DNA of 32,000 nucleotides from Candidatus Scalinduaceae bacterium (GTDB lineage: Bacteria > Planctomycetota > Brocadiia > Brocadiales > Scalinduaceae), in the NCBI GenBank assembly GCA_965222815.1, contig CBDCUS010000013.1, forward strand, positions 1,837,302-1,869,301, read 5' to 3'. The notes under the pieces are model-generated. The model was given only the letters and a program-made list of their open reading frames with translations. It had not been told where the DNA came from and made no database searches. A program made the position numbers and the translations under genes. Below, one piece after another: positions 1-23,244 of the stretch (the stretch's first letter is position 1; each line of letters starts with the position of its first letter).

Positions 1-658
1 ATCTTTGTAATGCCCACAAACAATAATCAATAATTTGCAGACAAGGTTCGTTGGATGGATAGTTCGAAGCAACTTTATGAGATGAGCTCACAACTTTCCC
101 TGATGTTTTTTCAAAATTTGTTGTTGCCTTTAATAGCTCATTAAAAAGCGTTTTGTTTCTATCAGATTTTCCTCTTCTGGCAAATGTAACATGATTCTCT
201 TCAGCCGAATGTAACCGGTCCTTAAAAACCCTCTTTACACAAGAGTCATATATTTTGTTTTGACTATATCTCCAAGTTTTATCACGTTGGTTTTGCTTTT
301 TAACATCTTCTAGAATGCTCATTTTCCTTCTGACTATACAGTAGACTTTTATATCCAAGGAAGAGATTAATTTATAAACTTCCCTTCGAACCTCTGGGCA
401 ATCGTCTTTTGCATGAAATGACAACTTTGTTTTTGAGTGAACGGAAGGGATATCTTTAAGGTAAGGATCCGACAATATTTGTTCTCTTAAGTTGTCGAGC
501 TTATTTCTTACTTCATGAGGTTCTACAATATGAACAAGTCCCAATATAAAATAACTGGAACAACCCTCCTGCCCGATCAACACTCTTCCTCTTTTGTTGA
601 ATAAAGTCAAATCTCCGGCTTCATCCACAAAATAATATCTTTTTGTTTCTTTCACCAT
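1..658 (-). CDS. DUF3800-like protein (partial; C-terminus beyond window edge)
   Basis: Open - strand frame from ATG 658-656 to position 1; absent from the ORF track because it has no stop in the window. My translation: MVKETKRYYFVDEAGDLTLFNKRGRV...NEPCLQIIDYCLWALQR. The N-terminal YFVDExG and C-terminal LQxxD are the two acidic hallmark motifs I associate with DUF3800. Confidence 0.55.
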   Translation of the reverse strand, partial: MVKETKRYYFVDEAGDLTLFNKRGRVLIGQEGCSSYFILGLVHIVEPHEVRNKLDNLREQILSDPYLKDIPSVHSKTKLSFHAKDDCPEVRREVYKLISSLDIKVYCIVRRKMSILEDVKKQNQRDKTWRYSQNKIYDSCVKRVFKDRLHSAEENHVTFARRGKSDRNKTLFNELLKATTNFEKTSGKVVSSSHKVASNYPSNEPCLQIIDYCLWALQR

Positions 659-669
659 AATTTAAACTT

Positions 670-777
670 TTATAACAGTTAAATATACAGATACCGCATA
701 CTCCCCACTCCTTTAATTTTGACCACACATCATTGAAGTTAGGATGAGATTTGATCCGTTTCATAATTCTCTTATAC
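670..777 (-). repeat. attC-like cassette-junction repeat, copy a
   Basis: Core 701-727 (+: CTCCCCACTCCTTTAATTTTGACCACA). On the - strand it ends ...ATTTAACTG|TTATAA (GTT box at 670-676). The 5' arm GTATAAGAGAATTAT (777-763) is complementary to the 3' arm, but reads AAG where AAC is expected. It abuts the stop codon of ORF 778-963. Confidence 0.45.
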
Positions 778-963
778 CTATAAACCGTGTTCTTTCCTCC
801 CCTTAATAATAAGAGCGAATCCTATTATCATCATAAGCATACAAATTACTCCTATGGAAAATGAATTGGTATTGAGGAAATCGTCTCCAAAAATACCAAA
901 CAACATAAGAGCCATGCCAACATAACTTATTGGCTTAAAAGTATACCATTTTTTTTCAAACAC
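778..963 (-). CDS. Small membrane protein, 61 aa, two predicted TM helices (GTG start)
   Basis: ORF track. GGAG lies 8 nt upstream of the GTG. Two hydrophobic stretches: VGMALMLFGIFG and IGVICMLMMIIGFALII. It is the sole ORF between junction repeats b and a. Confidence 0.4.
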   Translation of the reverse strand: MFEKKWYTFKPISYVGMALMLFGIFGDDFLNTNSFSIGVICMLMMIIGFALIIKGRKEHGL

Positions 964-1034
964 AGTGTCTACTCCAAATAAGATTCGATAAAAGGTTAAA
1001 TTTATTGTTTCATGTTATTTTTAAATATTCTTAG

Positions 1035-1151
1035 TTTCTACAGTTAAATTCACAGACACTTTGATGTCCAAAAACCCTTCAATTTTGACCACTGCTTTTC
1101 TTGGGTGTGCTCTTTCCGTTGGTGTAAAAGTCTGCAAACCAGCTGTTTTCC
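1035..1151 (-). repeat. attC-like cassette-junction repeat, copy b
   Basis: Core 1075-1109 (+: CCCTTCAATTTTGACCACTGCTTTTCTTGGGTGTG). On the - strand GGAAAACAG (1151-1143) ... CTGTAGAAA (1043-1035). The outer arms are partly complementary (ACAG, CAGAC, TTT, CCAA blocks). The 3' end ATTTAACTG is shared with copy a. Confidence 0.45.
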
Positions 1152-1262
1152 TATTTTACGTAGAGACATTTTGTTTTAATTTTTATGTGTTAATTTGTTT
1201 TTAAAGTTAACGGCCAGTCAACCGCCATGGATAGCGGTCTGTTGGATTGCCTGGATATGGGC

Positions 1263-1916
1263 TCAACCACCCGTTTGCTTTTTGAGCATTTCTAAAAGCA
1301 ATGGAAGTGCAATGTTCTCATAAACGGACTTACCCATCGACTTGAGTGCTTCAAGTGGTTTTGCAAGGATCGGCCAACGTTGCTCCCCTTGGGATTCTTT
1401 TGCTAGTTCTTGGGCATATGTCTTCGCCTGGGAAAGTTGATCTGGTGATAGGCCGAGCGAGTCTAGATTAGAGAGAACTTGGCTCAGTTCAACATGTGTA
1501 GTTTGAGATAGCACGTTGGTAACATTCACAATGATTGGGGGCCGCGTGGATGGTATACTGGTTTCAGTAGGTCCCACTTGAATGGGAAGAACAGGAAATT
1601 CTTCTAAAGCATCTTTAAGGATAACATTAGCACAGTCGAGATCATTCTCAAGAATGGCTTGATCTTGCCGAGACCACTCTTGACTACTACCGCGATGCTT
1701 GATAACTTTAACTCGCACTTGCCAGAACTGGAGAGACGAAAAGCGGCGTACATAGTTGTGGTCTTTACCAAATAGTTCGCTAAGACTTTGGCGGGTGCGT
1801 TCCCTCCATGATCGAAAGTCGGAATCAAAGGCGTTGACTATGTTGTCGCGAAAGACTTTTATGGCATCACGGCTGTCGTTAAGTCTGTTAAGGTGAAGAC
1901 TATTTTGATCGTTCAT
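1263..1916 (-). CDS. Hypothetical protein, 217 aa (cassette ORF, no recognisable family)
   Basis: ORF track. GGAGAG lies 6 nt upstream of the ATG. It looks visibly more G+C-rich than neighbouring cassettes. I recognise no motifs. Confidence 0.6.
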   Translation of the reverse strand: MNDQNSLHLNRLNDSRDAIKVFRDNIVNAFDSDFRSWRERTRQSLSELFGKDHNYVRRFSSLQFWQVRVKVIKHRGSSQEWSRQDQAILENDLDCANVILKDALEEFPVLPIQVGPTETSIPSTRPPIIVNVTNVLSQTTHVELSQVLSNLDSLGLSPDQLSQAKTYAQELAKESQGEQRWPILAKPLEALKSMGKSVYENIALPLLLEMLKKQTGG

Positions 1917-2037
1917 ATCAGCTCTCCATTAGATTCGGGGGTTCTATCCATAGAGTTAAAAATACAATCACTATGAAATTGTAAATATGCGGCGTCTGTA
2001 TATTTCCAATATCATGACAAAGTTTTGAACAATTTCT

Positions 2038-2118
2038 GAATAACAAAAAACCTTTTCACCTACTCCCCACCCCTTCATTTTGACCACTGGCTTTCTTGGG
2101 TGGTTGGGAGTGTTGTCC
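2038..2118 (-). repeat. attC-like cassette-junction repeat, copy c
   Basis: + strand TACTCCCCACCCCTTCATTTTGACCACTGGCTTTCTTGGGTGGTTGGGAGTGTTGTCC. It forms an imperfect hairpin: CACTCCC(AA)CCACCC pairs with GGGTGG-GGAGT, with a bulged AA. A GTTATTC box on the - strand sits at 2044-2038. No convincing R'' box found. Confidence 0.4.
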
Positions 2119-2189
2119 GAACTTGGCCAATGCACCAAGAAATAAGCCCTCTCTTACTTTTTATGGTGAGCACTACCCATCAAACTTGG

Positions 2190-2666
2190 CTACAGCATGA
2201 TAAAAAGCAGCGAGATGATAATAATACCTACTAATACACAACCAAATACTGACTTACCCCATACCCAGAACCCTCTTTGTCCCCACAATTTTTCTGGTTC
2301 TGGTAAAAGTGTTTCTTTGTGTAAATAAACGTTTTTTTCAAAAAGACCAAGAGATTCTTCTATCCTTACTAGAAATTGTTTTAATACATTCAAACTGGAT
2401 GCAAACCAACCTAGTGTGATAGATGCAAATCCAACAAACACAAATAGTATAATTGCTAGCTTTAATTTAAGAGTAATATCAACTGTCTTTCCTCCATATT
2501 TTGTTATAATCCATCCTATAAATGATGTCAAAAAAGCCAAGAAGGCACCGCTAACTAGTACTCTTGTACGATGTAAAAATCGCCAATCTTCGCGGAAAGA
2601 TTTTTCGAAGTGTAGAAGAATTTCGATCTTTTTGTCAGTTTCTTTTAAATGCTCCATTTTTAACAT
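2190..2666 (-). CDS. Membrane protein, 158 aa (soluble N-terminal helix + 3 TM helices); third gene of the 3-gene cassette
   Basis: ORF track. TM stretches: VLVSGAFLAFLTSFIGWII, LAIILFVFVGFASITLGWFA and VFGCVLVGIIIISLLFIML. It starts 21 nt after the deaminase stop. Confidence 0.6.
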   Translation of the reverse strand: MLKMEHLKETDKKIEILLHFEKSFREDWRFLHRTRVLVSGAFLAFLTSFIGWIITKYGGKTVDITLKLKLAIILFVFVGFASITLGWFASSLNVLKQFLVRIEESLGLFEKNVYLHKETLLPEPEKLWGQRGFWVWGKSVFGCVLVGIIIISLLFIML

Positions 2667-2687
2667 AACATATGGTGCAATCTTTGG

Positions 2688-3134
2688 TTAGTGACTTGGT
2701 TCACCTATGTCTTCATGCCAGAGTTTTGGATTTTCCACAATAAATTGTTGCATTAAATCAATGCATTCTTTGCTGTTAACAACATTAACTAAAATCCCCC
2801 GAGACCGAAGATAGGCTTCAGGGCCTCGAAAAGTGATATTTTCCCCAACAACGATTCTTGGTATTTTGTATAGTAAAGAGGCACCGCTACACATATCGCA
2901 GGGAGATAACGTGGAATAAATAGTAGCGCGTGCAAAGTCTTTTGCTTTGAGGCGGCCCGCATTTTCCAGACAATCCATCTCCGCATGCAGGATTGCACTA
3001 TCTTGCTGTACCCTTTTGTTGTGCCCTCGGCTAACAACACGGCCTTCGATTACCAACACAGAACCGATAGGAATCCCGCCTTCTCTTAACCCAATTTTCG
3101 CTTCCTCGATAGCAATCTCTAAAAATTCATCCAT
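2688..3134 (-). CDS. Zn-dependent cytosine deaminase, CDA fold, yeast Fcy1-type
   Basis: It has the HAE...PCDMC zinc motifs. It is near-colinear with my remembered S. cerevisiae Fcy1: GGIPIGSVL, GHNKRVQ..SAILHAEMDCLENAGRL, YSTLSPCDMCSGA, PRIVVGEN, QQFIVENPKLWHEDIGE. I chose the start at ATG 3134 (AAAGGA 8 nt upstream). The ORF track extends to a TTG at 3170. Confidence 0.85.
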   Translation of the reverse strand: MDEFLEIAIEEAKIGLREGGIPIGSVLVIEGRVVSRGHNKRVQQDSAILHAEMDCLENAGRLKAKDFARATIYSTLSPCDMCSGASLLYKIPRIVVGENITFRGPEAYLRSRGILVNVVNSKECIDLMQQFIVENPKLWHEDIGEPSH

Positions 3135-3159
3135 AAATTTGTCCTTTAGTGTTAAATCT

Positions 3160-3774
3160 TTACCATCCAAAAAGAGTTTTTACAGTCTGTGTGTTGATTT
3201 CTTTTAACAATTTTTTTATTATTATACGGCGGTCCTGAATGCTTGAAGAGCGTAGGCTGCGTTTGAAAATTTTCGAGACAGTTTCAAATCTTACCATGCG
3301 AGTGTTACGAGCCTTTGCTTCTGATAGATCTTGGAAATACCCACTTTTCACTTTCCAGCTTCCATTTTGATTTTTTTGGTGGAGAAAGATGCAACCAAAA
3401 CCTTCATCCTTAATGAGTTCATTAACATTTTGAGTTTCGTAAATATATGAAATTCTATGTTTTCTATCATCGACATGCATAACAATTGACCACCAATCAT
3501 AATACTCGTTTCCATTATTGTCGAAGCTTTGACCTTTGAACTGGAGTTTTCCATTGGGTAAGAGAGTGAATTCGCAGATAGAGAACGGACGGTCTTTTAG
3601 CAAGCTATTTGCTTCGATCCACACACCTTGAAGAGAATGATAAATTTTCCAACGTTTCGTTGTTCTCCACTTTTGAAATATAAGCGATGCTACAAGGCTT
3701 GCGATTACTCCCACTACAAAGCCTATGAAATGAGAAGAAAAAAATGATACTACACCACTATTTGCTAGTTCCAT
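3160..3774 (-). CDS. N-terminally TM-anchored protein with beta-rich soluble domain and basic C-terminal tail, 204 aa; first gene of the 3-gene cassette
   Basis: ORF track. TM helix: FIGFVVGVIASLVASLIF. It is followed by an alternating beta-like pattern (GVWIEAN...FTLLPNGKLQFKGQSF...WWSIVMHV...ISYIYE...GCIFLH...SWKVKSGYF). I recognise no family. Confidence 0.6.
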   Translation of the reverse strand: MELANSGVVSFFSSHFIGFVVGVIASLVASLIFQKWRTTKRWKIYHSLQGVWIEANSLLKDRPFSICEFTLLPNGKLQFKGQSFDNNGNEYYDWWSIVMHVDDRKHRISYIYETQNVNELIKDEGFGCIFLHQKNQNGSWKVKSGYFQDLSEAKARNTRMVRFETVSKIFKRSLRSSSIQDRRIIIKKLLKEINTQTVKTLFGW

Positions 3775-3821
3775 GATAAATTATTTTGAAAAAATTCCTG
3801 TAATTCTAAATGATCTAATCA

Positions 3822-3912
3822 GTTGTCCCCCACCCCTTCAATTTTGACCACTGGTTTTTTTGGGAGGTGTTTTACAACTTGATCCGTTCTCAACATTTTA
3901 GCTTTGTTAGAC
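3822..3912 (-). repeat. attC-like cassette-junction repeat, copy d
   Basis: + strand GTTGTCCCCCACCCCTTCAATTTTGACCACTGGTTTTTTTGGGAGGTGTTTTACAAC (3822-3878), a hairpin with GTTGT/ACAAC outer pairs. A - strand GTCTAAC (3912-3906) lies 42 nt upstream of the core, at the same offset as the R''-like box of copy b. No GTT box found on the 3' side. Confidence 0.4.
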
Positions 3913-3973
3913 ATCAATATATTTGTCTTTTTCAGTCATGGTGAGTCTGACCACTATTTCATGATACTTCTCC

Positions 3974-4095
3974 TTGTAACGTTCCGCATAAGTAACCACC
4001 ACCTGTCGTATGCTTCATGAGAGGCTTTGAGCTGCAGTCTCAAAAAATATTAAATCGCAAATAATCAGGTGGTTGGCTTCATGCGTTTGTTATAT
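3974..4095 (-). other. attC site of cassette 2 (canonical)
   Basis: On the - strand: R'' ATATAAC (4095-4089) ... R' GTTACAA (3980-3974). The arms ATATAACAAACGCATGAAGCCAACCACCTG and CAGGTGGTGGTTACTTATGCGGAACGTTACAA are complementary, with a few mismatches and bulges. R'' is the exact complement of this cassette's first bases, G|TTATAT (4917-4911). Confidence 0.65.
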
Positions 4096-4190
4096 GTTTT
4101 AATCTTAACCATCTTATTCTTGGAATTTCCAAGGATTTTCTTTTTTTAATAATTTGATTAAAACTCTATCTTTTGGCTGTTTTTGTATTG

Positions 4191-4457
4191 TTAGATGCCT
4201 TTATCATTAACAGGTGACAATTTAAAGTTCATAAATTGATCTGAGCCGAATCTCTCCTTACCCTCAGCAAACTTCTCTAGTGGTACTTCCAAGCTATGAA
4301 GCATTTCAGATAGATGCTGAATAACATCTGACAGCATTAGCAAACGATTAGCCAACTCAAGTCGAACTCGATGGATTTCTCCGTCAGGTAATCGCTCTAG
4401 TAGATCTACCACAGGTCCTACAACCCGGCCATAGGCTGTTCCAAGATTCAACATCAT
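4191..4457 (-). CDS. Hypothetical 88-aa ORF; probably the C-terminal part of the upstream HEPN-like gene in the -1 frame
   Basis: ORF track. Its frame stays open upstream through the 41-nt gap and into ORF 4499-4888 (...CEKNQGAYGTLSWVVGAGEEHVTKPMMLNLGTAYGRVVGPVV). There is no separate Shine-Dalgarno sequence. Confidence 0.45.
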   Translation of the reverse strand: MMLNLGTAYGRVVGPVVDLLERLPDGEIHRVRLELANRLLMLSDVIQHLSEMLHSLEVPLEKFAEGKERFGSDQFMNFKLSPVNDKGI

Positions 4458-4498
4458 TGGCTTAGTGACATGCTCCTCTCCTGCACCGACAACCCAAC

Positions 4499-4888
4499 TT
4501 AGAGTTCCATAAGCACCTTGGTTTTTTTCGCAATACCAGCTAATTCCTGATCGAGGTGTTGAGCAGAATTACGCATATCTGTAACCACTTCAGTACGACG
4601 AATAAAAAGTTTGTAGACATGATTGTGTTTAATACCAGGCGCCATGCGAAGTACAGACCTAAATCTATGAACAGCGTCAATAAATGTCCAGGTGTGTCGT
4701 ATTGTTTTGACGAATTCTCTTGGTTGGTCAGCCTCCTTATCTTTTGAGAGTAAATGTAGCTCACTAATAAGATCGGAATATGCTTGTCCAGCCATTTCTG
4801 CAGAAAGTCGCAAAGCGTCTAAAAACACTATTTGCTTTCGGCTCAAACCATGGGGGAGACGTCTTAGAACGGAATCCGGTTTAATCAT
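4499..4888 (-). CDS. HEPN-like protein (Rx4H motif RNSAQH), 129 aa as annotated
   Basis: ORF track. R106-N-S-A-Q-H111, encoded at 4573-4556, fits the HEPN R[NHQD]xxxH ribonuclease motif and lies late in an all-helical ~125-aa region. The assignment rests on this motif and its position only. Confidence 0.5.
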   Translation of the reverse strand: MIKPDSVLRRLPHGLSRKQIVFLDALRLSAEMAGQAYSDLISELHLLSKDKEADQPREFVKTIRHTWTFIDAVHRFRSVLRMAPGIKHNHVYKLFIRRTEVVTDMRNSAQHLDQELAGIAKKTKVLMEL

Positions 4889-4910
4889 CTTTTATACGTA
4901 TTGTTGAGAC

Positions 4911-5037
4911 ATATAACGACTAAAGTGAGGTGCGCCGTATAGCAAATAAAACAAACAACATAAATAAAATAAGAAAAGAATCTGACAACGTAGAAACCGC
5001 ACGTGATAAAGGCGTCAACTCCAGTTACTCGTTAGGC
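4911..5037 (-). other. attC site of cassette 1 (canonical)
   Basis: On the - strand: R'' GCCTAAC (5037-5031) ... R' GTTATAT (4917-4911). The arms GCCTAACGAGTAACTGGAGTTGACGCCTTTAT and ATACGGCGCACCTCACTTTAGTCGTTATAT pair at about 24 of 32 positions, with single-base bulges. R'' is the exact complement of the cassette start G|TTAGGC at attI. Confidence 0.7.
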
Positions 5038-5078
5038 ATTTAATCATTGCTACTTCTATTGTTCTTTGATTGAAATTA

Positions 5079-5348
5079 TTATGAAAAATATTTTATTTTT
5101 ACTCCTGTACCGTTGCAAGAAGTGCAATTATCGCTTACAGTTTCACCAGTTGCATAGCCAGTGTTGTTGCAAACCTCACAATTTACACTGATCATTTCAT
5201 GTTCTGAAGCACCTCCAGATCCAGCAATTGCCCCATTATATCCACCCCATCCTTTACACCTAGGGCAAGTATCCCCGTTATTACCAAAAAAAGTTATTTC
5301 TCCAGTACCATTACAATCATCGCATTGGTTATCTGTCTCGTTACTCAT
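5079..5348 (-). CDS. Cysteine-rich miniprotein, 89 aa, four CxxCxGxG motifs (DnaJ zinc-finger-like); first cassette
   Basis: ORF track. Motifs: CDDCNGTG, CPRCKGWG, CEVCNNTG, CTSCNGTG. GGGAGGTGG lies 4 nt upstream of the ATG. Confidence 0.7.
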   Translation of the reverse strand: MSNETDNQCDDCNGTGEITFFGNNGDTCPRCKGWGGYNGAIAGSGGASEHEMISVNCEVCNNTGYATGETVSDNCTSCNGTGVKIKYFS

Positions 5349-5581
5349 TTTCCACCTCCCAACAAATGGTTAATTAGTTTTGGTAAATCAGAAATAAGTA
5401 TGATTTAGAAAAAATTGTAGTAACAATGAAAGCAAAAAGTCTTTAATGTTGCTACAAATATCAAGACCCTAATTTCCGTACATCAAGGAAGCACACAAAG
5501 AATCTGTTAAATTTATTTTCCATGCTATGCTCTCTGATTTTATGCCTAACAAGTTATTCTATAGTTTCCGTATAGTCACGA

Positions 5582-5609
5582 ATATTACAAAATATTTGAC
5601 TTTTTACAA
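5582..5609 (-). promoter_or_regulatory. Candidate cassette promoter Pc (TTGTAA-16-TAATAT)
   Basis: Sigma70-like hexamers on the - strand, upstream of the attI core and reading into cassette 1. It overlaps the intI promoter face to face. Confidence 0.35.
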
Positions 5610-5624
5610 GTATTTTCTTATACT
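5596..5624 (+). promoter_or_regulatory. Candidate intI promoter (TTGACT-17-TATACT)
   Basis: Near-consensus -35/-10 hexamers with a 17-nt spacer. The -10 ends 40 nt upstream of the intI ATG. Confidence 0.5.
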
Positions 5625-5664
5625 TATCTAACCGTATAGTATCTTTTTGTAATGCTATTCATCA

Positions 5665-6984
5665 ATGATAAGTATTCCATCTGAAATTTCTGTTTGTTTT
5701 AATTCTGCTTTGGCCAAAAACAGGATTCCCAAAGAGTATCAGAACCATTATAGAAAATGGTTACGATATTATCTTGATTTTTGCATAAAGTATAATTTCG
5801 AAAGCATTCATCCAGAAAGCCTACAGAACTTTTTGAGAAAGTTGGGGGAAAAACGCCAGACAAGGGAGCAGCAAAAGCAGGCTTCTCATGCAATATCTTT
5901 ATATTACAAAATAGCTCCTACCAGAACGATACCTGATCAGAAGATAAGGTCGGGTGGGTTTCAGAGTGAACAAAATGCTTCAGAAAAAGAAAAATTGTCA
6001 GGCGAAAGTCAGGCATGGCAATCAGCTCTTGATAATCTTACTTCAGAAATCAAGATACGACACTATTCACCCAAAACACTGAAGACGTATACTCTGTGGG
6101 TCAAGAAATTTCAGGCCTTTACACGATGCAAAGATACGTTGTTATTGTCTTCAAACGACGTAAAAGAGTTTTTAACTTTTCTGGCTATTAAGCGGAAGGT
6201 ATCCGCCTCAACCCAAAATCAGGCTTTTAACGCCCTTTTGTTTTTTTACCGGCATGTCATCAAAAAGGATTTTGAGAATTTAAAGGATACTCCAAGGGCT
6301 AAGAGAAAACGTTATATACCCGTTGTTTTATCACGGGAAGAGATAGATGCAATTTTTGAAAATCTTTTATATCCGTATGATTTAGTCGCCAAGCTTTTGT
6401 ATGGATGTGGATTGAGATTGTTTGAATGCGTTAACCTCCGTGTTAACAATTTTAATTTTGATGCATGTATATTAACTGTACATGACGGCAAGGGAAAAAA
6501 GGATAGAACGGTTCCTCTGCCGGAGGCAATCCTGCCGGAGCTGAAAGCACATATGAAGCGGGTAAAAAATCTCCATCAAATAGACCTGGATGCAAATTAT
6601 TCCGGTGCTTTCCTGATTGACATGTTGGATAAGAAGTACAAGAATTGTGCTAAAGAGTTGGTTTGGCAGTGGTTTTTCCCTGCAAAGACATTAACCTTAG
6701 TTCCGGAGACAGGTGAATATCGACGGTATCATCTGCATGAATCTCATGTGCAGAAAGCCATAAAACGTGCTGTTGGTAAGTCAAAGATATGTAAGCGCGC
6801 TTCTTGCCATACGTTTCGCCATAGCTTCGCCTCTCATCTGTTGAAAGCCAACTATGACATACGTACTATTCAGGAACTGCTGGGGCATAGCGATGTCAGG
6901 ACTACAATGATTTATACCCATACGATAAAGAGTCAGACAGTAAAAGAGGCAAAGAGTCCACTTGATTTCTCATCTGAAGTGTAG
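5665..6984 (+). CDS. intI: Integron integrase IntI with an extra ~118-aa N-terminal domain
   Basis: The tyrosine-recombinase catalytic set is visible: R in GCGLRLFE, K in DGKGKKDR, HxxR in HTFRHSFASHLL, H in LLGHSDV, Y in MIYTH. It carries the IntI-specific insertion GAFLIDMLDKKYKNCAKELVWQWFFPAK...YRRYHLHESHVQKAIKRAV. That insertion is colinear with my remembered IntI1 segment [27 protein letters not shown]...RRHHMYDQTFQRAFKRAV. The C-terminal SPLD is also present. Confidence 0.9.
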   Translation: MISIPSEISVCFNSALAKNRIPKEYQNHYRKWLRYYLDFCIKYNFESIHPESLQNFLRKLGEKRQTREQQKQASHAISLYYKIAPTRTIPDQKIRSGGFQSEQNASEKEKLSGESQAWQSALDNLTSEIKIRHYSPKTLKTYTLWVKKFQAFTRCKDTLLLSSNDVKEFLTFLAIKRKVSASTQNQAFNALLFFYRHVIKKDFENLKDTPRAKRKRYIPVVLSREEIDAIFENLLYPYDLVAKLLYGCGLRLFECVNLRVNNFNFDACILTVHDGKGKKDRTVPLPEAILPELKAHMKRVKNLHQIDLDANYSGAFLIDMLDKKYKNCAKELVWQWFFPAKTLTLVPETGEYRRYHLHESHVQKAIKRAVGKSKICKRASCHTFRHSFASHLLKANYDIRTIQELLGHSDVRTTMIYTHTIKSQTVKEAKSPLDFSSEV

Positions 6985-6992
6985 TTAAATAG

Positions 6993-7207
6993 CGGTTGAA
7001 CGAAAACTGACCAGATATACCCATTACAAAATGATTTTTGGAATTTCTGGGCAGGAGTTTGCGTGAAATAGGGTTCTGAAAACTAAAAATCAATTTGTGA
7101 TGGGTATTAAAGGCGCGTAGATATTTTGTAACCGGAGCGTACTCAAGTACGTGAGGATTGCGAAATTTCTACAGCAACGCAGTAGGTGGTCAGTTTTCGT
7201 TCAACCG
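6993..7207 (-). repeat. Palindromic TIR element, copy R1 (215 bp, contains nested insertion)
   Basis: Perfect 21-bp terminal inverted repeats CGGTTGAACGAAAACTGACCA (6993-7013 / 7187-7207). The interior 7110-7186 is colinear, as reverse complement, with R2 and R3. It ends 5 nt after the stop of the - strand radical SAM gene. Confidence 0.75.
7017..7107. repeat. Nested small TIR element inside R1
   Basis: ~91 bp bounded by ATACCCATTACAAA / TTTGTGATGGGTAT (13 of 14 complementary). It occupies the position where R2 and R3 have only GTAC. Confidence 0.5.
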
Positions 7208-23000: not shown

Positions 23001-23045
23001 TAGTTTTCGCGTTGGTCTATATAATTGCAACTTTTACTATAATTA

Positions 23046-23170
23046 GTGTTTATCGAAAATCACCCATCTACCGCGTTGCTGTAACAATTTCGTAATCCTC
23101 AAGTACTATGGTACGATCCGGTTACGAATTTGTTACGCATCTTGTACCTGGCTAGTTTTGGTTCAAACAC
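23046..23170 (+). repeat. Palindromic TIR element, copy R2 (125 bp)
   Basis: Colinear with R3 across its whole length. The termini are degenerate: GTGTTTATCGAAAATCACCCA / TGGCTAGTTTTGGTTCAAACAC. It starts 45 nt after the CPBP stop. Confidence 0.7.
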
Positions 23171-23244
23171 AGGGTTTTCATTCAAGCACTAATTAGTTAA
23201 AAGGTTACCTTTTTAGCATTTCATGAAAAATTGATGAGGATCAT

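What the first reader, a model, noticed from the sequence alone, without database searches (positions are those of the whole stretch)
1..6984. Complete chromosomal integron with at least six cassettes, next to core genes
The 439-aa recombinase has the IntI-only insertion between the conserved patches, plus all catalytic residues, so it looks functional. The layout is canonical: intI on +, divergent promoters, an attI-like site, then nine ORFs all on -. Those ORFs are separated by structured junction sites. Base composition differs visibly between cassettes; 1263-1916 looks more GC-rich than 2190-3774, which fits independent acquisition. The array continues past position 1, so the true size is unknown. 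None of the cargo is a known resistance gene.
Basis: partly seen in the sequence, partly recalled or inferred. Interest (0 to 1): 0.7.

Follow-up and report, generated by a model that had tools for sequence, protein, structure and literature searches.

The report
Small two-cassette chromosomal integron in Scalindua
This is a real but ordinary chromosomal integron in an anammox (Scalindua-like) bacterium, with an intact integrase, a well-defined insertion site and only two demonstrable gene cassettes; the remaining genes are separated by a different, unexplained repeat.

Summary
The integrase call is right. ORF 5665-6984 passes the IntI-specific model TIGR02249 (390.8 bits, cutoff 265). It has the IntI-only insertion and all six catalytic residues. 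The attI site is pinned precisely: six Scalindua intI platforms are homologous up to the G|TT of GTTAGGC (5550..5544, minus strand) and unrelated beyond it.

Only two junctions are canonical attC sites: attC1 (5037..4911) and attC2 (4095..3974). Both have the standard R''/L''/L'/R' layout with two extrahelical bases. Both have homologues in other intI-linked Scalindua arrays. In both cassettes the first six bases are complementary to that cassette's own R''. This gives two cassettes, of 633 bp (one ORF) and 937 bp (two ORFs).

Left of 3974, six more same-strand ORFs are separated by a lineage-specific repeat of about 155 nt, or by nothing. That repeat fails every attC test I could run. It is absent from other intI-linked arrays. 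It carries remnants of the 5' end of a Xer-like integrase gene.

By the IntegronFinder definition this is a "complete integron next to core genes". "At least six cassettes" and "array continues past position 1" are not supported. It is a new member of a known kind.

The parts
5665..6984 (+). intI, an integron integrase of 439 aa. It has an N-terminal extension of about 120 aa that looks like a diverged second SAM-like domain.
   Evidence: TIGR02249 scores 390.8 bits against a cutoff of 265, covering profile positions 2-313 of 315. Pfam finds Phage_integrase plus two stretches of Phage_int_SAM_4. R251, K276, H382, R385, H408 and Y417 are invariant in the alignment with IntI1, and the IntI-specific insertion around residues 296-345 aligns with IntI1. 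Identity is 82-88% to proteins that sources name integron integrase of Candidatus Scalindua. The N-terminal part against the SAM-like domain gives 24% identity, E 0.012.
5596..5624 (+). Candidate intI promoter (TTGACT-17-TATACT), 40 nt upstream of the intI ATG.
   Evidence: Consensus scan, 10 of 12 matches. TTGAC and TATA(C/A)T are conserved in all six Scalindua platforms. Function is inferred, and the scan overall is at chance level.
5544..5664 (-). attI region. The core GTTAGGC lies at 5550..5544 on the minus strand, with the crossover between G5550 and T5549. The simple site reads GAATAAC-TT-GTTAGGC. Two conserved direct repeats CCGTATAG (5568-5575 and 5632-5639, plus strand) are candidate accessory binding sites.
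   Evidence: In a six-way alignment of Scalindua intI platforms, conservation runs up to AAC (5548-5550) and stops there. The four bases beyond vary, and further out the sequences are unrelated. BLAST homology to L001, L003, L015 and L017 ends at 5538-5548.
4917..5549 (-). Cassette 1 (633 bp). It holds ORF 5079-5348 (89 aa, a zinc-ribbon protein with DnaJ-like CXXCXGXG repeats) plus attC1.
   Evidence: The cassette starts TTAGGC, which is complementary to its own R'' GCCTAAC. Pfam gives sub-threshold DnaJ_CXXCXGXG and Anti-TRAP hits.
4911..5037 (-). attC1, 127 nt. R'' is GCCTAAC and R' is G|TTATAT. Layout: R''(7)-3-5-G-6-A-4 ... 4-6-5-4-R'(7).
   Evidence: It has the modal architecture (3,4,1,1) shared with class 1, Thiodictyon and Scalindua attCs, with 16 Watson-Crick and 1 G-U pair out of 22. 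The MFE fold gives the same long imperfect hairpin. Homologous attCs lie in intI-linked arrays L015 (85%, E 5e-34 by BLAST) and L003. The structure alone is not significant: it ranks 15th of 2038 candidates, and folding z is 0.47.
3980..4916 (-). Cassette 2 (937 bp). It holds ORFs 4499-4888 (129 aa) and 4191-4457 (88 aa), both without family assignment, plus attC2.
   Evidence: The cassette starts TTATAT, which is complementary to its own R'' ATATAAC. An alternative split at 4564..4492 is rejected by the cassette rule and by its architecture score of 5.9.
3974..4095 (-). attC2, 122 nt. R'' is ATATAAC and R' is G|TTACAA. It is the last demonstrable attC.
   Evidence: Architecture (3,4,1,1) with 18 of 22 Watson-Crick pairs. 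It ranks 2nd of 2038 AAC..GTT candidates in the window. The constrained fold gives -15.2 kcal/mol with 31 nested pairs. Homologues lie in intI-linked arrays L001 (86%), L015 and L003.
1..3973 (-). Distal accessory region without demonstrable attC. ORFs: 3160-3774, 2688-3170 (cytidine/dCMP-type deaminase), 2190-2666, 1263-1916 (weak PDC-S35 match), 778-963, and 2-658 (DUF3800, cut by the window edge).
   Evidence: No canonical attC was found by the rule-based, architecture-based or homology searches. No R'' complementary to the TTACAA start at 3979 exists. Homologues of the 217-aa ORF sit in non-integron contexts; the one informative case, L032, lies beside two tandem tRNA-like sequences that I identified by eye.
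1952..2121 (-). Full-length copy of the roughly 155-nt Scalindua repeat. It comprises the core GTGGTCAAAA(T)TGAAGGGGTGGGG, a spacer, an 18-7-18 palindrome (TCATGATATTGGAAATATAC AGACGCC GCATATTTACAATTTCATAG) and the terminus ..TTTTTAAC.
   Evidence: Iterated nhmmer gives E 1e-43, and the copies are aligned. The same repeat occurs in Scalindua sp. SCAELEC01 contigs L007-L010. It is absent from intI-linked arrays L001, L003, L006 and L015-L017.
3715..3868 (-). Partial copy of the repeat. The core is intact and the 3' part is replaced by the start of ORF 3160-3774.
   Evidence: nhmmer E 1.7e-25; alignment.
1075..1162 (-). Short copy of the repeat (1075-1108), preceded by a remnant of the promoter and first 27 or so codons of a Xer-like tyrosine integrase gene (1088-1162).
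   Evidence: BLASTN of window 1097-1171 against the L008 int 5' end gives 85%. tblastn with the L008 integrase matches residues 8-27 at 75% identity, E 3.7e-4. Alignment.
684..748 (-). Short copy of the repeat (subtype 2), with the terminus TATATTTAAC-T-GTTATAA.
   Evidence: nhmmer E 3.6e-9; sequence.
6989..7206 (.). MITE-like repeat with terminal inverted repeats, lying immediately 3' of intI. It marks the right-hand edge of the conserved platform and is not part of the integron mechanism.
   Evidence: It is 85-91% identical to copies 3' of intI in L001 and L002. Other copies lie at window 23040-23198 and 29602-29727 and in L010.

Best explanation
The window holds a small chromosomal integron of a Candidatus Scalindua-like anammox planctomycete. 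It consists of intact intI (5665-6984, +), an attI site whose crossover point is G|TT at 5550/5549 on the minus strand, and two cassettes read on the minus strand.

The inferred mechanism is the standard integron one. IntI recombines the folded bottom strand of a circular cassette's attC with attI, so new cassettes enter next to intI. They are presumably transcribed from a promoter in or near the attI/intI region. attC x attC or attI x attC recombination excises them.

- Shown here: the integrase family and catalytic residues, the exact platform/cassette boundary, two canonical attC sites, and the complementarity between each cassette's first six bases and its own R''.
- Inferred: current activity, the cassette promoter, and the role of the CCGTATAG repeats.

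The array ends at attC2 (3974). The six further minus-strand ORFs (1-3973) are not demonstrable cassettes. They form an adjacent accessory, defence-like region (DUF3800, deaminase, PDC-S35-like). It is punctuated by a lineage-specific repeat of about 155 nt that carries remnants of a Xer-like integrase gene 5' end. This region is most likely debris or accretion from other mobile elements beside the integron.
For: - **Integrase.** It passes TIGR02249 at 390.8 bits against a cutoff of 265. All catalytic residues and the IntI insertion align with IntI1. Sources name its 82-88% relatives integron integrase of Scalindua.
- **attI.** Six platforms align up to AAC/GTT and diverge completely beyond it (BLAST endpoints).
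- **attC1 and attC2.** Both show the architecture (3,4,1,1) of known attCs from class 1 integrons, Thiodictyon pTs485 and other Scalindua arrays, with bulged G and A. attCs from other intI-linked arrays find them by homology (nhmmer E 1e-13 and 7e-7). The cassette rule holds 7/7 for both cassettes and also holds in L015.
- **No further attC.** Rule-based scan, architecture scan to 230 nt, attC-family nhmmer, explicit tests of the best junction candidates and the search for an R'' matching TTACAA all found none.
- **The repeat.** It occurs only in the window and in four SCAELEC01 contigs. Its 5' half is homologous to the 5' end of a Xer-like int gene that sits next to a sequence I identified by eye as a tRNA gene in L008.
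- **Cargo context.** Homologues of the 217-aa ORF lie in non-integron contexts; in L032 they sit beside two tandem tRNA-like sequences, with no attC detected by my scan.
Against: - I could not run IntegronFinder's attC covariance model. My surrogate tests require exact AAC and GTT and a near-canonical layout, so strongly atypical attC sites would be missed.
- My own covariance model, built from trimmed attCs, lacked the power to recover even attC1 and attC2.
- attC1 is not statistically distinguishable by structure alone (rank 15 of 2038).
- The left ORFs are cassette-like in size and are all co-oriented.
- In SCAELEC01 locus L010 the same repeat is interspersed with a canonical 60-nt attC. 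In L008 an attC-like site lies nearby. The repeat may therefore live inside cassette arrays.
- The repeat's 3' terminus TTTAAC-T-GTTRRRR resembles the attI simple site.
Confidence: 0.7

Rival explanations
1. One reading: all of 1-5550 is one cassette array with six or more cassettes. The 155-nt repeats, or sites within them, would act as atypical attC or attI-like recombination sites for IntI, and the array would continue beyond the window.
For: - There are nine co-oriented small ORFs with varied GC content.
- The repeats sit exactly in the junctions, only in this region of the window.
- The repeat terminus TATATTTAAC-T-GTTRRRR resembles the attI core GAATAAC-TT-GTTAGGC.
- In L010 repeat copies flank a cassette that has a canonical attC.
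Against: - No junction left of 3974 has the R''..R' order or the paired arms. Architecture scores are 4.0 or below for the repeat-based candidates, against 7-19.5 for known attCs.
- Repeat conservation is in primary sequence, including the would-be loop, not in pairing.
- The repeat is absent from six other intI-linked Scalindua arrays.
- No R'' complementary to the TTACAA start exists.
- Similarity of the repeat to the attI platform is not significant.
Confidence: 0.15
2. The region left of 3974 is the remains of one or more integrative elements driven by a Xer-like tyrosine integrase of the type found next to a tRNA-like sequence in SCAELEC01. The 155-nt repeats would be att-site or integrase-5'-end remnants left by successive integrations and deletions. 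This would be unrelated to IntI and merely adjacent to the integron.
For: - The repeat's 5' half is homologous to the promoter and first 30 or so codons of the L008 integrase gene.
- That integrase is a generic Xer-like recombinase, not IntI (63 bits on TIGR02249 against a cutoff of 265). It abuts a sequence I read by eye as a tRNA gene and carries repeated arm-like motifs.
- The 18-7-18 palindrome has the shape of a tyrosine-recombinase core site and shows compensatory changes between copies (TTGGAAA/TTTCCAA against TTCGAAA/TTTCGAA).
- The cargo is typical of defence islands, and a homologue of the 217-aa ORF lies beside tRNA-like sequences in L032.
Against: - No integrase C-terminal remnant, tRNA gene or intact Xer-like integrase lies in 1-5550.
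- Repeat copies have ragged 5' ends rather than a fixed crossover point.
- Relatives of the L008 integrase in metagenomes are 30% identical or less, so no comparative context was obtained.
- The left boundary is outside the window.
Confidence: 0.3
3. The integron is a fossil: intI is intact by sequence, but the array is static and no longer recombines.
For: - There are only two cassettes.
- R''/R' complementarity in situ is only 5 of 7 for both attCs.
- No cassette promoter was identified.
- A MITE abuts intI.
Against: - All catalytic residues are intact and the ORF is full length.
- Six related platforms carry six different first cassettes, joined exactly at G|TT, which indicates recent activity in the lineage.
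- Both cassettes keep perfect complementarity between their 5' ends and R''.
Confidence: 0.2

Closest known systems
Chromosomal integrons of environmental bacteria, as catalogued by IntegronFinder (Cury et al. 2016, PMC4889954), and the Planctomycetes attC class (Ghaly et al. 2021, PMC8352920)
   Same: The IntI carries the IntI-specific domain. intI and the cassettes are divergent. The attI core is GTTRRRY. The attCs have R''/L''/L'/R' and two extrahelical bases. Cassettes are promoterless and of unknown function. The location is chromosomal.
   Different: There are only two cassettes, with two dissimilar attC types, rather than a long homogeneous array. The IntI has an N-terminal extension of about 120 aa. 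Membership by IntegronFinder's own covariance model could not be tested here.
Class 1 integron (IntI1/attI1/attC) on enterobacterial plasmids
   Same: The catalytic residues and IntI insertion are shared (42.5% identity). The attC architecture matches that of the aacA4, catB3 and dfrA14 attCs. The attI crossover is at G|TT.
   Different: This integron is not on a transposon or plasmid. It carries no resistance genes and lacks the 3' conserved segment. Its attCs are longer and AT-rich (122-127 nt).
Integron on Candidatus Thiodictyon syntrophicum plasmid pTs485 (L014)
   Same: Its IntI is the long form (454 aa) with the same N-terminal extension (45% identity). It has a divergent array of hypothetical genes with canonical attCs.
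   Different: The Thiodictyon array has at least four near-identical 97-nt GC-rich attCs (GCCTAAC...GTTAGGC), as is typical of sedentary arrays. The window has two unlike attCs.
Repeat-bounded gene modules moved by Xer-type recombinases (Acinetobacter pdif modules), and split-integrase remnants of SSV-type elements. From my own knowledge; relevant to the region left of 3974 only.
   Same: Small gene modules are separated by a recurring site that contains an inverted-repeat core (18-7-18). Integrase N-terminal remnants lie at the repeats.
   Different: No XerC/D-type 11-6-11 site, no alternating site orientation and no integrase C-terminal half were found. No mobility of the modules is shown. 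This is a resemblance only.

Membership tests
Integron (complete integron in the IntegronFinder sense) | Tyrosine recombinase that carries the IntI-specific additional domain | tested here: met
   TIGR02249 scores 390.8 bits against a cutoff of 265, full length. The insertion aligns with IntI1.
Integron (complete integron in the IntegronFinder sense) | Catalytic residues R-K-H-R-H-Y intact | tested here: met
   R251, K276, H382, R385, H408 and Y417 are invariant in the alignment with IntI1, Thiodictyon and Scalindua IntIs.
Integron (complete integron in the IntegronFinder sense) | attI next to intI, with a GTTRRRY core at the platform/cassette boundary | tested here: met
   GTTAGGC lies at 5550..5544. 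Homology among six platforms ends exactly at G|TT.
Integron (complete integron in the IntegronFinder sense) | At least one attC: R'' RYYYAAC ... R' GTTRRRY, imperfect hairpin with L boxes and extrahelical bases | tested here: met
   Two sites, 5037..4911 and 4095..3974, have the canonical architecture and have homologues in other intI-linked arrays.
Integron (complete integron in the IntegronFinder sense) | attC sites score with IntegronFinder's attC covariance model | not testable with these tools
   The model is not available and Rfam has no attC family. My own trimmed-attC model R1 lacked power.
Integron (complete integron in the IntegronFinder sense) | Cassette unit: the first six bases (TTRRRY) are complementary to the cassette's own R'' | tested here: met
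   TTAGGC pairs with GCCTAAC, and TTATAT pairs with ATATAAC.
Integron (complete integron in the IntegronFinder sense) | IntI-dependent excision or integration of cassettes | not testable with these tools
   This needs experiment. The only indirect support is that related platforms carry different first cassettes.
   Junctions 3775-3973, 1917-2189, 964-1262 and 657-777 have no canonical attC. Three ORF pairs have no junction at all.
Sedentary chromosomal integron (large array type, e.g. Vibrio) | Long array with highly similar, species-specific attC sites | tested here: not met
   There are two cassettes, and attC1 and attC2 belong to different sequence families.
Sedentary chromosomal integron (large array type, e.g. 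Vibrio) | Chromosomal location beside core genes | tested here: met
   alaS, plsX, fabH, fabF, ribF and tRNAs lie to the right. However, related platforms sit in six different contexts.
Integrative element with a Xer-like integrase (considered for region 1-3973) | Integrase gene, or remnants of it, at the repeat boundaries | tested here: inconclusive
   N-terminal remnants are present. No C-terminal part, intact integrase or tRNA target lies in 1-5550.

The most novel reading that the evidence does not exclude
The roughly 155-nt repeats would be functional recombination sites that bound a second kind of cassette-like gene module. Each repeat comprises a conserved core, an 18-7-18 palindrome and a terminus TTTAAC-T-GTTRRRR that resembles the attI simple site. 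The modules would be moved either by a Xer-like integrase or by IntI acting on attI-like double-stranded sites. Scalindua arrays would then mix two cassette systems side by side, as the interleaving with a canonical attC in L010 hints.
Probability: 0.1. Interest if true: 0.6.

Novelty: new member of a known kind. Interest (0 to 1): 0.3.

Why it matters
The window adds a well-delimited integron from an uncultured anammox planctomycete, with an exact attI crossover and two attC types shared across Scalindua genomes. This is useful for annotating Scalindua MAGs and for taxon-specific attC models. It does not change what is known about integrons.

The practical lesson is that co-oriented small ORFs next to intI should not be counted as cassettes without attC evidence. 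Here two thirds of them are bounded by another repeat.

That repeat, and the very common IntI form with a duplicated N-terminal SAM-like domain, are the only parts that might reward further work.

Tried and rejected
- **Rfam.** Searches at gathering and permissive thresholds found only two tRNAs and nothing in 1-5700.
- **Simple attC scans.** A plain AAC..GTT arm-alignment scan was too noisy. A strict RYYYAAC/GTTRRRY scan missed the real sites.
- **My own covariance model.** It was built from 13 trimmed attCs, none from the window. Covariation support was good. It could not span the 60-70-nt central regions and recovered neither attC1 nor attC2. I do not use it as evidence either way.
- **Published Planctomycetes attC model.** The supplement of PMC8352920 holds covariance models only, cut when stored, and the sandbox has no Infernal.
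- **Repeat as a peptide.** I considered a conserved ..WSKLKGWG reading. I rejected it because there is no consistent start codon, copies differ by frame-shifting indels, and the core is invariant at the nucleotide level.
- **Repeat as an attC.** Rejected: its pairing arms run GTT..AAC rather than AAC..GTT, and architecture scores are 4.0 or below.
- **Candidate attC at 4564..4492.** It has perfect R boxes. I rejected it because the architecture score is 5.9 and the cassette rule fails.
- **43-nt hairpin at 1247..1205.** It is too short and lacks L boxes.
- **Repeat versus attI platform.** Similarity is not significant.
- **Collection scans.** The metagenome scan for the repeat core found nothing. 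The scan for the Xer-like integrase found only relatives at 30% identity or less.
- **Leftward extension.** Exact-protein look-ups failed, although the 217-aa protein is recorded on a 2.28-Mb contig.

Full report
**What is in the sequence.** The window has one large ORF on the plus strand at 5665-6984 (439 aa). To its left are nine minus-strand ORFs: 5079-5348, 4499-4888, 4191-4457, 3160-3774, 2688-3170, 2190-2666, 1263-1916, 778-963, and a DUF3800 ORF starting at 658 that runs off the left edge. To the right lie a B12-binding radical SAM gene, alaS, plsX, fabH, fabF, a sulfate permease, ribF, a C-terminal protease and two tRNA genes. The context is therefore chromosomal.

**The integrase.**
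- The 439-aa protein scores 390.8 bits on the integron-integrase model TIGR02249 (cutoff 265), over essentially the whole profile.
- In an alignment with IntI1, a Thiodictyon IntI and Scalindua IntIs, R251, K276, H382, R385, H408 and Y417 are invariant. The IntI-specific insertion is present.
- Its closest relatives (82-88% identity) are proteins that sources name integron integrase of Candidatus Scalindua. Thousands of 420-460-aa relatives exist in environmental bacteria.
- The extra 120 or so N-terminal residues give a second Phage_int_SAM_4 match. They align weakly with the protein's own SAM-like domain (24% identity, E 0.012).

**attI.** I fetched intI loci from five other Scalindua assemblies. 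All have divergent runs of small ORFs, including toxin-antitoxin pairs, but each sits in a different chromosomal neighbourhood. Aligned with the window, the six platforms are conserved from intI through a shared TTGAC..TATA(C/A)T motif and two CNGTATAG repeats. Conservation runs up to ...CTATAGAATAACTTG|TT on the minus strand and stops there. The next four bases vary (AGGC, CGCC, AGGC, AGAA, ATGC, TATC), and beyond them the sequences are unrelated. BLAST endpoints at 5538-5548 agree. This fixes the attI crossover at G5550|T5549 and shows that the lineage has inserted different first cassettes.

**attC sites.** A rule-based scan used AAC..GTT pairs and a constrained fold. It recovered the known attCs of aacA4 and catB3, and four 96-97-nt attCs of the Thiodictyon plasmid integron. 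The dfrA14 attC was recovered later with relaxed thresholds. In the window the scan picks out 5037..4911 and 4095..3974.

I trimmed 13 attCs from class 1 integrons, Thiodictyon and other Scalindua arrays to their arms. They align into one architecture: R''(7), 3 unpaired, 5 bp, a bulge, 6 bp, a bulge, 4 bp, and the mirror arm with 4-5 unpaired before R'. Covariation is strong: 75.5% of cells are paired against 27-48% when the partners are slid, and 0 of 500 shuffles reach the observed score. Both window sites have exactly this modal layout:
- attC1: GCCTAAC GAG TAACT G GAGTTG A CGCC ... GGCG CACCTC ACTTT AGTC GTTATAT
- attC2: ATATAAC AAA CGCAT G AAGCCA A CCAC ... GTGG TTACTT ATGCG GAAC GTTACAA

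On an architecture score, known attCs reach 7-19.5. attC2 scores 13.5 (2nd of 2038 candidates in the window) and attC1 scores 10.8 (15th). Structure alone is thus convincing for attC2 and only moderate for attC1. Two independent lines support both sites:
- attCs from intI-linked arrays of other genomes find them by sequence. L015 and L001 hit attC2 at E 1e-13 or better, and L015 hits attC1 at 7e-7 to 5e-34. In those arrays they stand behind unrelated ORFs.
- Each cassette's first six bases are the exact complement of its own R''. TTAGGC at 5549 pairs with GCCTAAC, and TTATAT at 4916 pairs with ATATAAC. The same rule holds in L015.

This gives cassette 1 (4917-5549, 633 bp, a zinc-ribbon protein) and cassette 2 (3980-4916, 937 bp, two unassigned ORFs). 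A tempting site at 4564..4492 with perfect R boxes would split cassette 2. It has a poor architecture score (5.9) and violates the cassette rule.

**Left of attC2.** The sequence after attC2 begins TTACAA, but no R'' complementary to it exists anywhere to the left. No junction there scores as an attC by any of these tests:
- the fold-based scan;
- the architecture scan extended to 230 nt;
- explicit tests of the best candidates;
- nhmmer with ten Scalindua attCs.

Three ORF pairs have no spacer at all. The four real junctions instead carry copies of a repeat whose full form is about 155 nt. Its parts are:
- a core, GTGGTCAAAATTGAAGGGGTGGGG, that is almost invariant between copies;
- a spacer;
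- an 18-7-18 palindrome with compensatory changes between copies;
- a terminus, TATATTTAAC-T-GTTRRRR.

Copies lie at 3868..3715, 2121..1952 (full length), 1108..1075 and 748..684. The copies do not fold better than shuffled sequence and match no Rfam family.

An exact-pattern scan of 185,579 species genomes found the core only in Candidatus Scalindua sp. SCAELEC01, on four contigs. The JGI metagenome collection had none. There too the repeat lies between co-oriented small ORFs, including BrnT/CopG and HicA-like genes. It is absent from the other six intI-linked arrays.

The repeat's 5' half is homologous to the promoter and first 30 or so codons of a 331-aa Xer-like integrase gene in L008. That protein is not an IntI (63 bits on TIGR02249). 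It abuts a sequence I read by eye as a tRNA gene. The window keeps such a remnant at 1162..1088 (75% identity over 20 residues). No C-terminal integrase fragment is present.

Homologues of the 217-aa ORF elsewhere lie in non-integron contexts. The one informative case, L032, sits beside two tandem tRNA-like sequences, with no attC detected by my scan.

**Interpretation.** The best-supported reading is a small, intact chromosomal integron with two cassettes, working as integrons do. It is followed by an accessory, defence-like region that is not demonstrably part of the array.

I cannot exclude that the repeat takes part in recombination. In L010 its copies flank a cassette with a textbook 60-nt attC. 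In L008 an attC-like site (R'' GCCCAAT, R' GTTAAAC) precedes the Xer-like integrase gene. The repeat's terminus also resembles the attI simple site, although overall similarity to the platform is not significant.

**Known or new.** Integrons are documented well beyond Proteobacteria, and a Planctomycetes-specific attC model has been published (PMC4889954 and PMC8352920). Scalindua proteins of this family are already named integron integrase in public records. This locus is a new member of a known kind.

**Limits.** I could not run IntegronFinder's attC model. My own covariance model was underpowered. The contig could not be extended. Activity is untested.

Noticed in passing
window 6989-7206, 23040-23198, 29602-29727; L001 1517-1674, 11407-11486, 12500-12806; L010 1974-2104, 3493-3649: A MITE-like repeat of about 150 nt with terminal inverted repeats (TAGTGTTTGAACGAAAACT ... 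AGTTTTCGTTCAAACACTA). One long variant sits directly after the intI stop codon in both the window and L001. In L001 a HicAB pair lies between two copies.
   Followed up: partly
window 27591-27736: Another interspersed repeat, matching L001 1194-1366 and 13630-13741 at 72-75% identity.
   Followed up: no
window 5665-6030 (IntI residues 1-120): The N-terminal extension looks like a diverged duplicate of the SAM-like core-binding domain. It is shared by thousands of 420-460-aa environmental IntIs and by the Thiodictyon plasmid IntI, and is absent from IntI1. It might bind the conserved CNGTATAG repeats in attI.
   Followed up: partly
window 5568-5575 and 5632-5639; same columns in L001, L003, L006, L015, L017: Two conserved direct repeats C(C/T)GTATAG in the attI/promoter region of all six Scalindua integron platforms. 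They are candidate accessory IntI sites or repressor sites.
   Followed up: no
L001, L003, L006, L015, L017 versus the window: Closely related intI platforms (81-85% DNA identity) sit in six different chromosomal neighbourhoods. This suggests that the platform itself moves, or that there are several integrons per genome.
   Followed up: partly
L008 4575-5570 and 4305-4380; L008 5693-5758: In Scalindua sp. SCAELEC01 a Xer-like integrase lies next to a sequence I read by eye as a tRNA-Arg(CCT)-like gene, with three CCCGTATTCTGCC repeats downstream. Immediately upstream is an attC-like site whose R'' reads GCCCAAT, behind an Mrr-like ORF.
   Followed up: partly
L010 5047-5106 and 6385-6545: A textbook 60-nt attC (TGATAAC...GTTAGAG) follows a BrnT/CopG pair and lies between copies of the 155-nt repeat. 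Separately, a 20-bp perfect inverted repeat (GGAAAAACTAACTTGTTGTT / AACAACAAGTTAGTTTTTCC) encloses about 120 nt.
   Followed up: no
window 2190-3774: Three tightly packed minus-strand ORFs form a possible defence-type operon: a 204-aa protein with an N-terminal hydrophobic segment, a 160-aa cytidine/dCMP-type deaminase, and a 158-aa membrane-like protein. The flanking DUF3800 ORF (2-658) matches a PADLOC DUF3800 model, and ORF 1263-1916 weakly matches PDC-S35.
   Followed up: partly
L003 20933-21041: An attC2-type site lies about 10 kb on the other side of intI, near a PIN-domain gene. It is a possible solitary attC or a second attC cluster.
   Followed up: no
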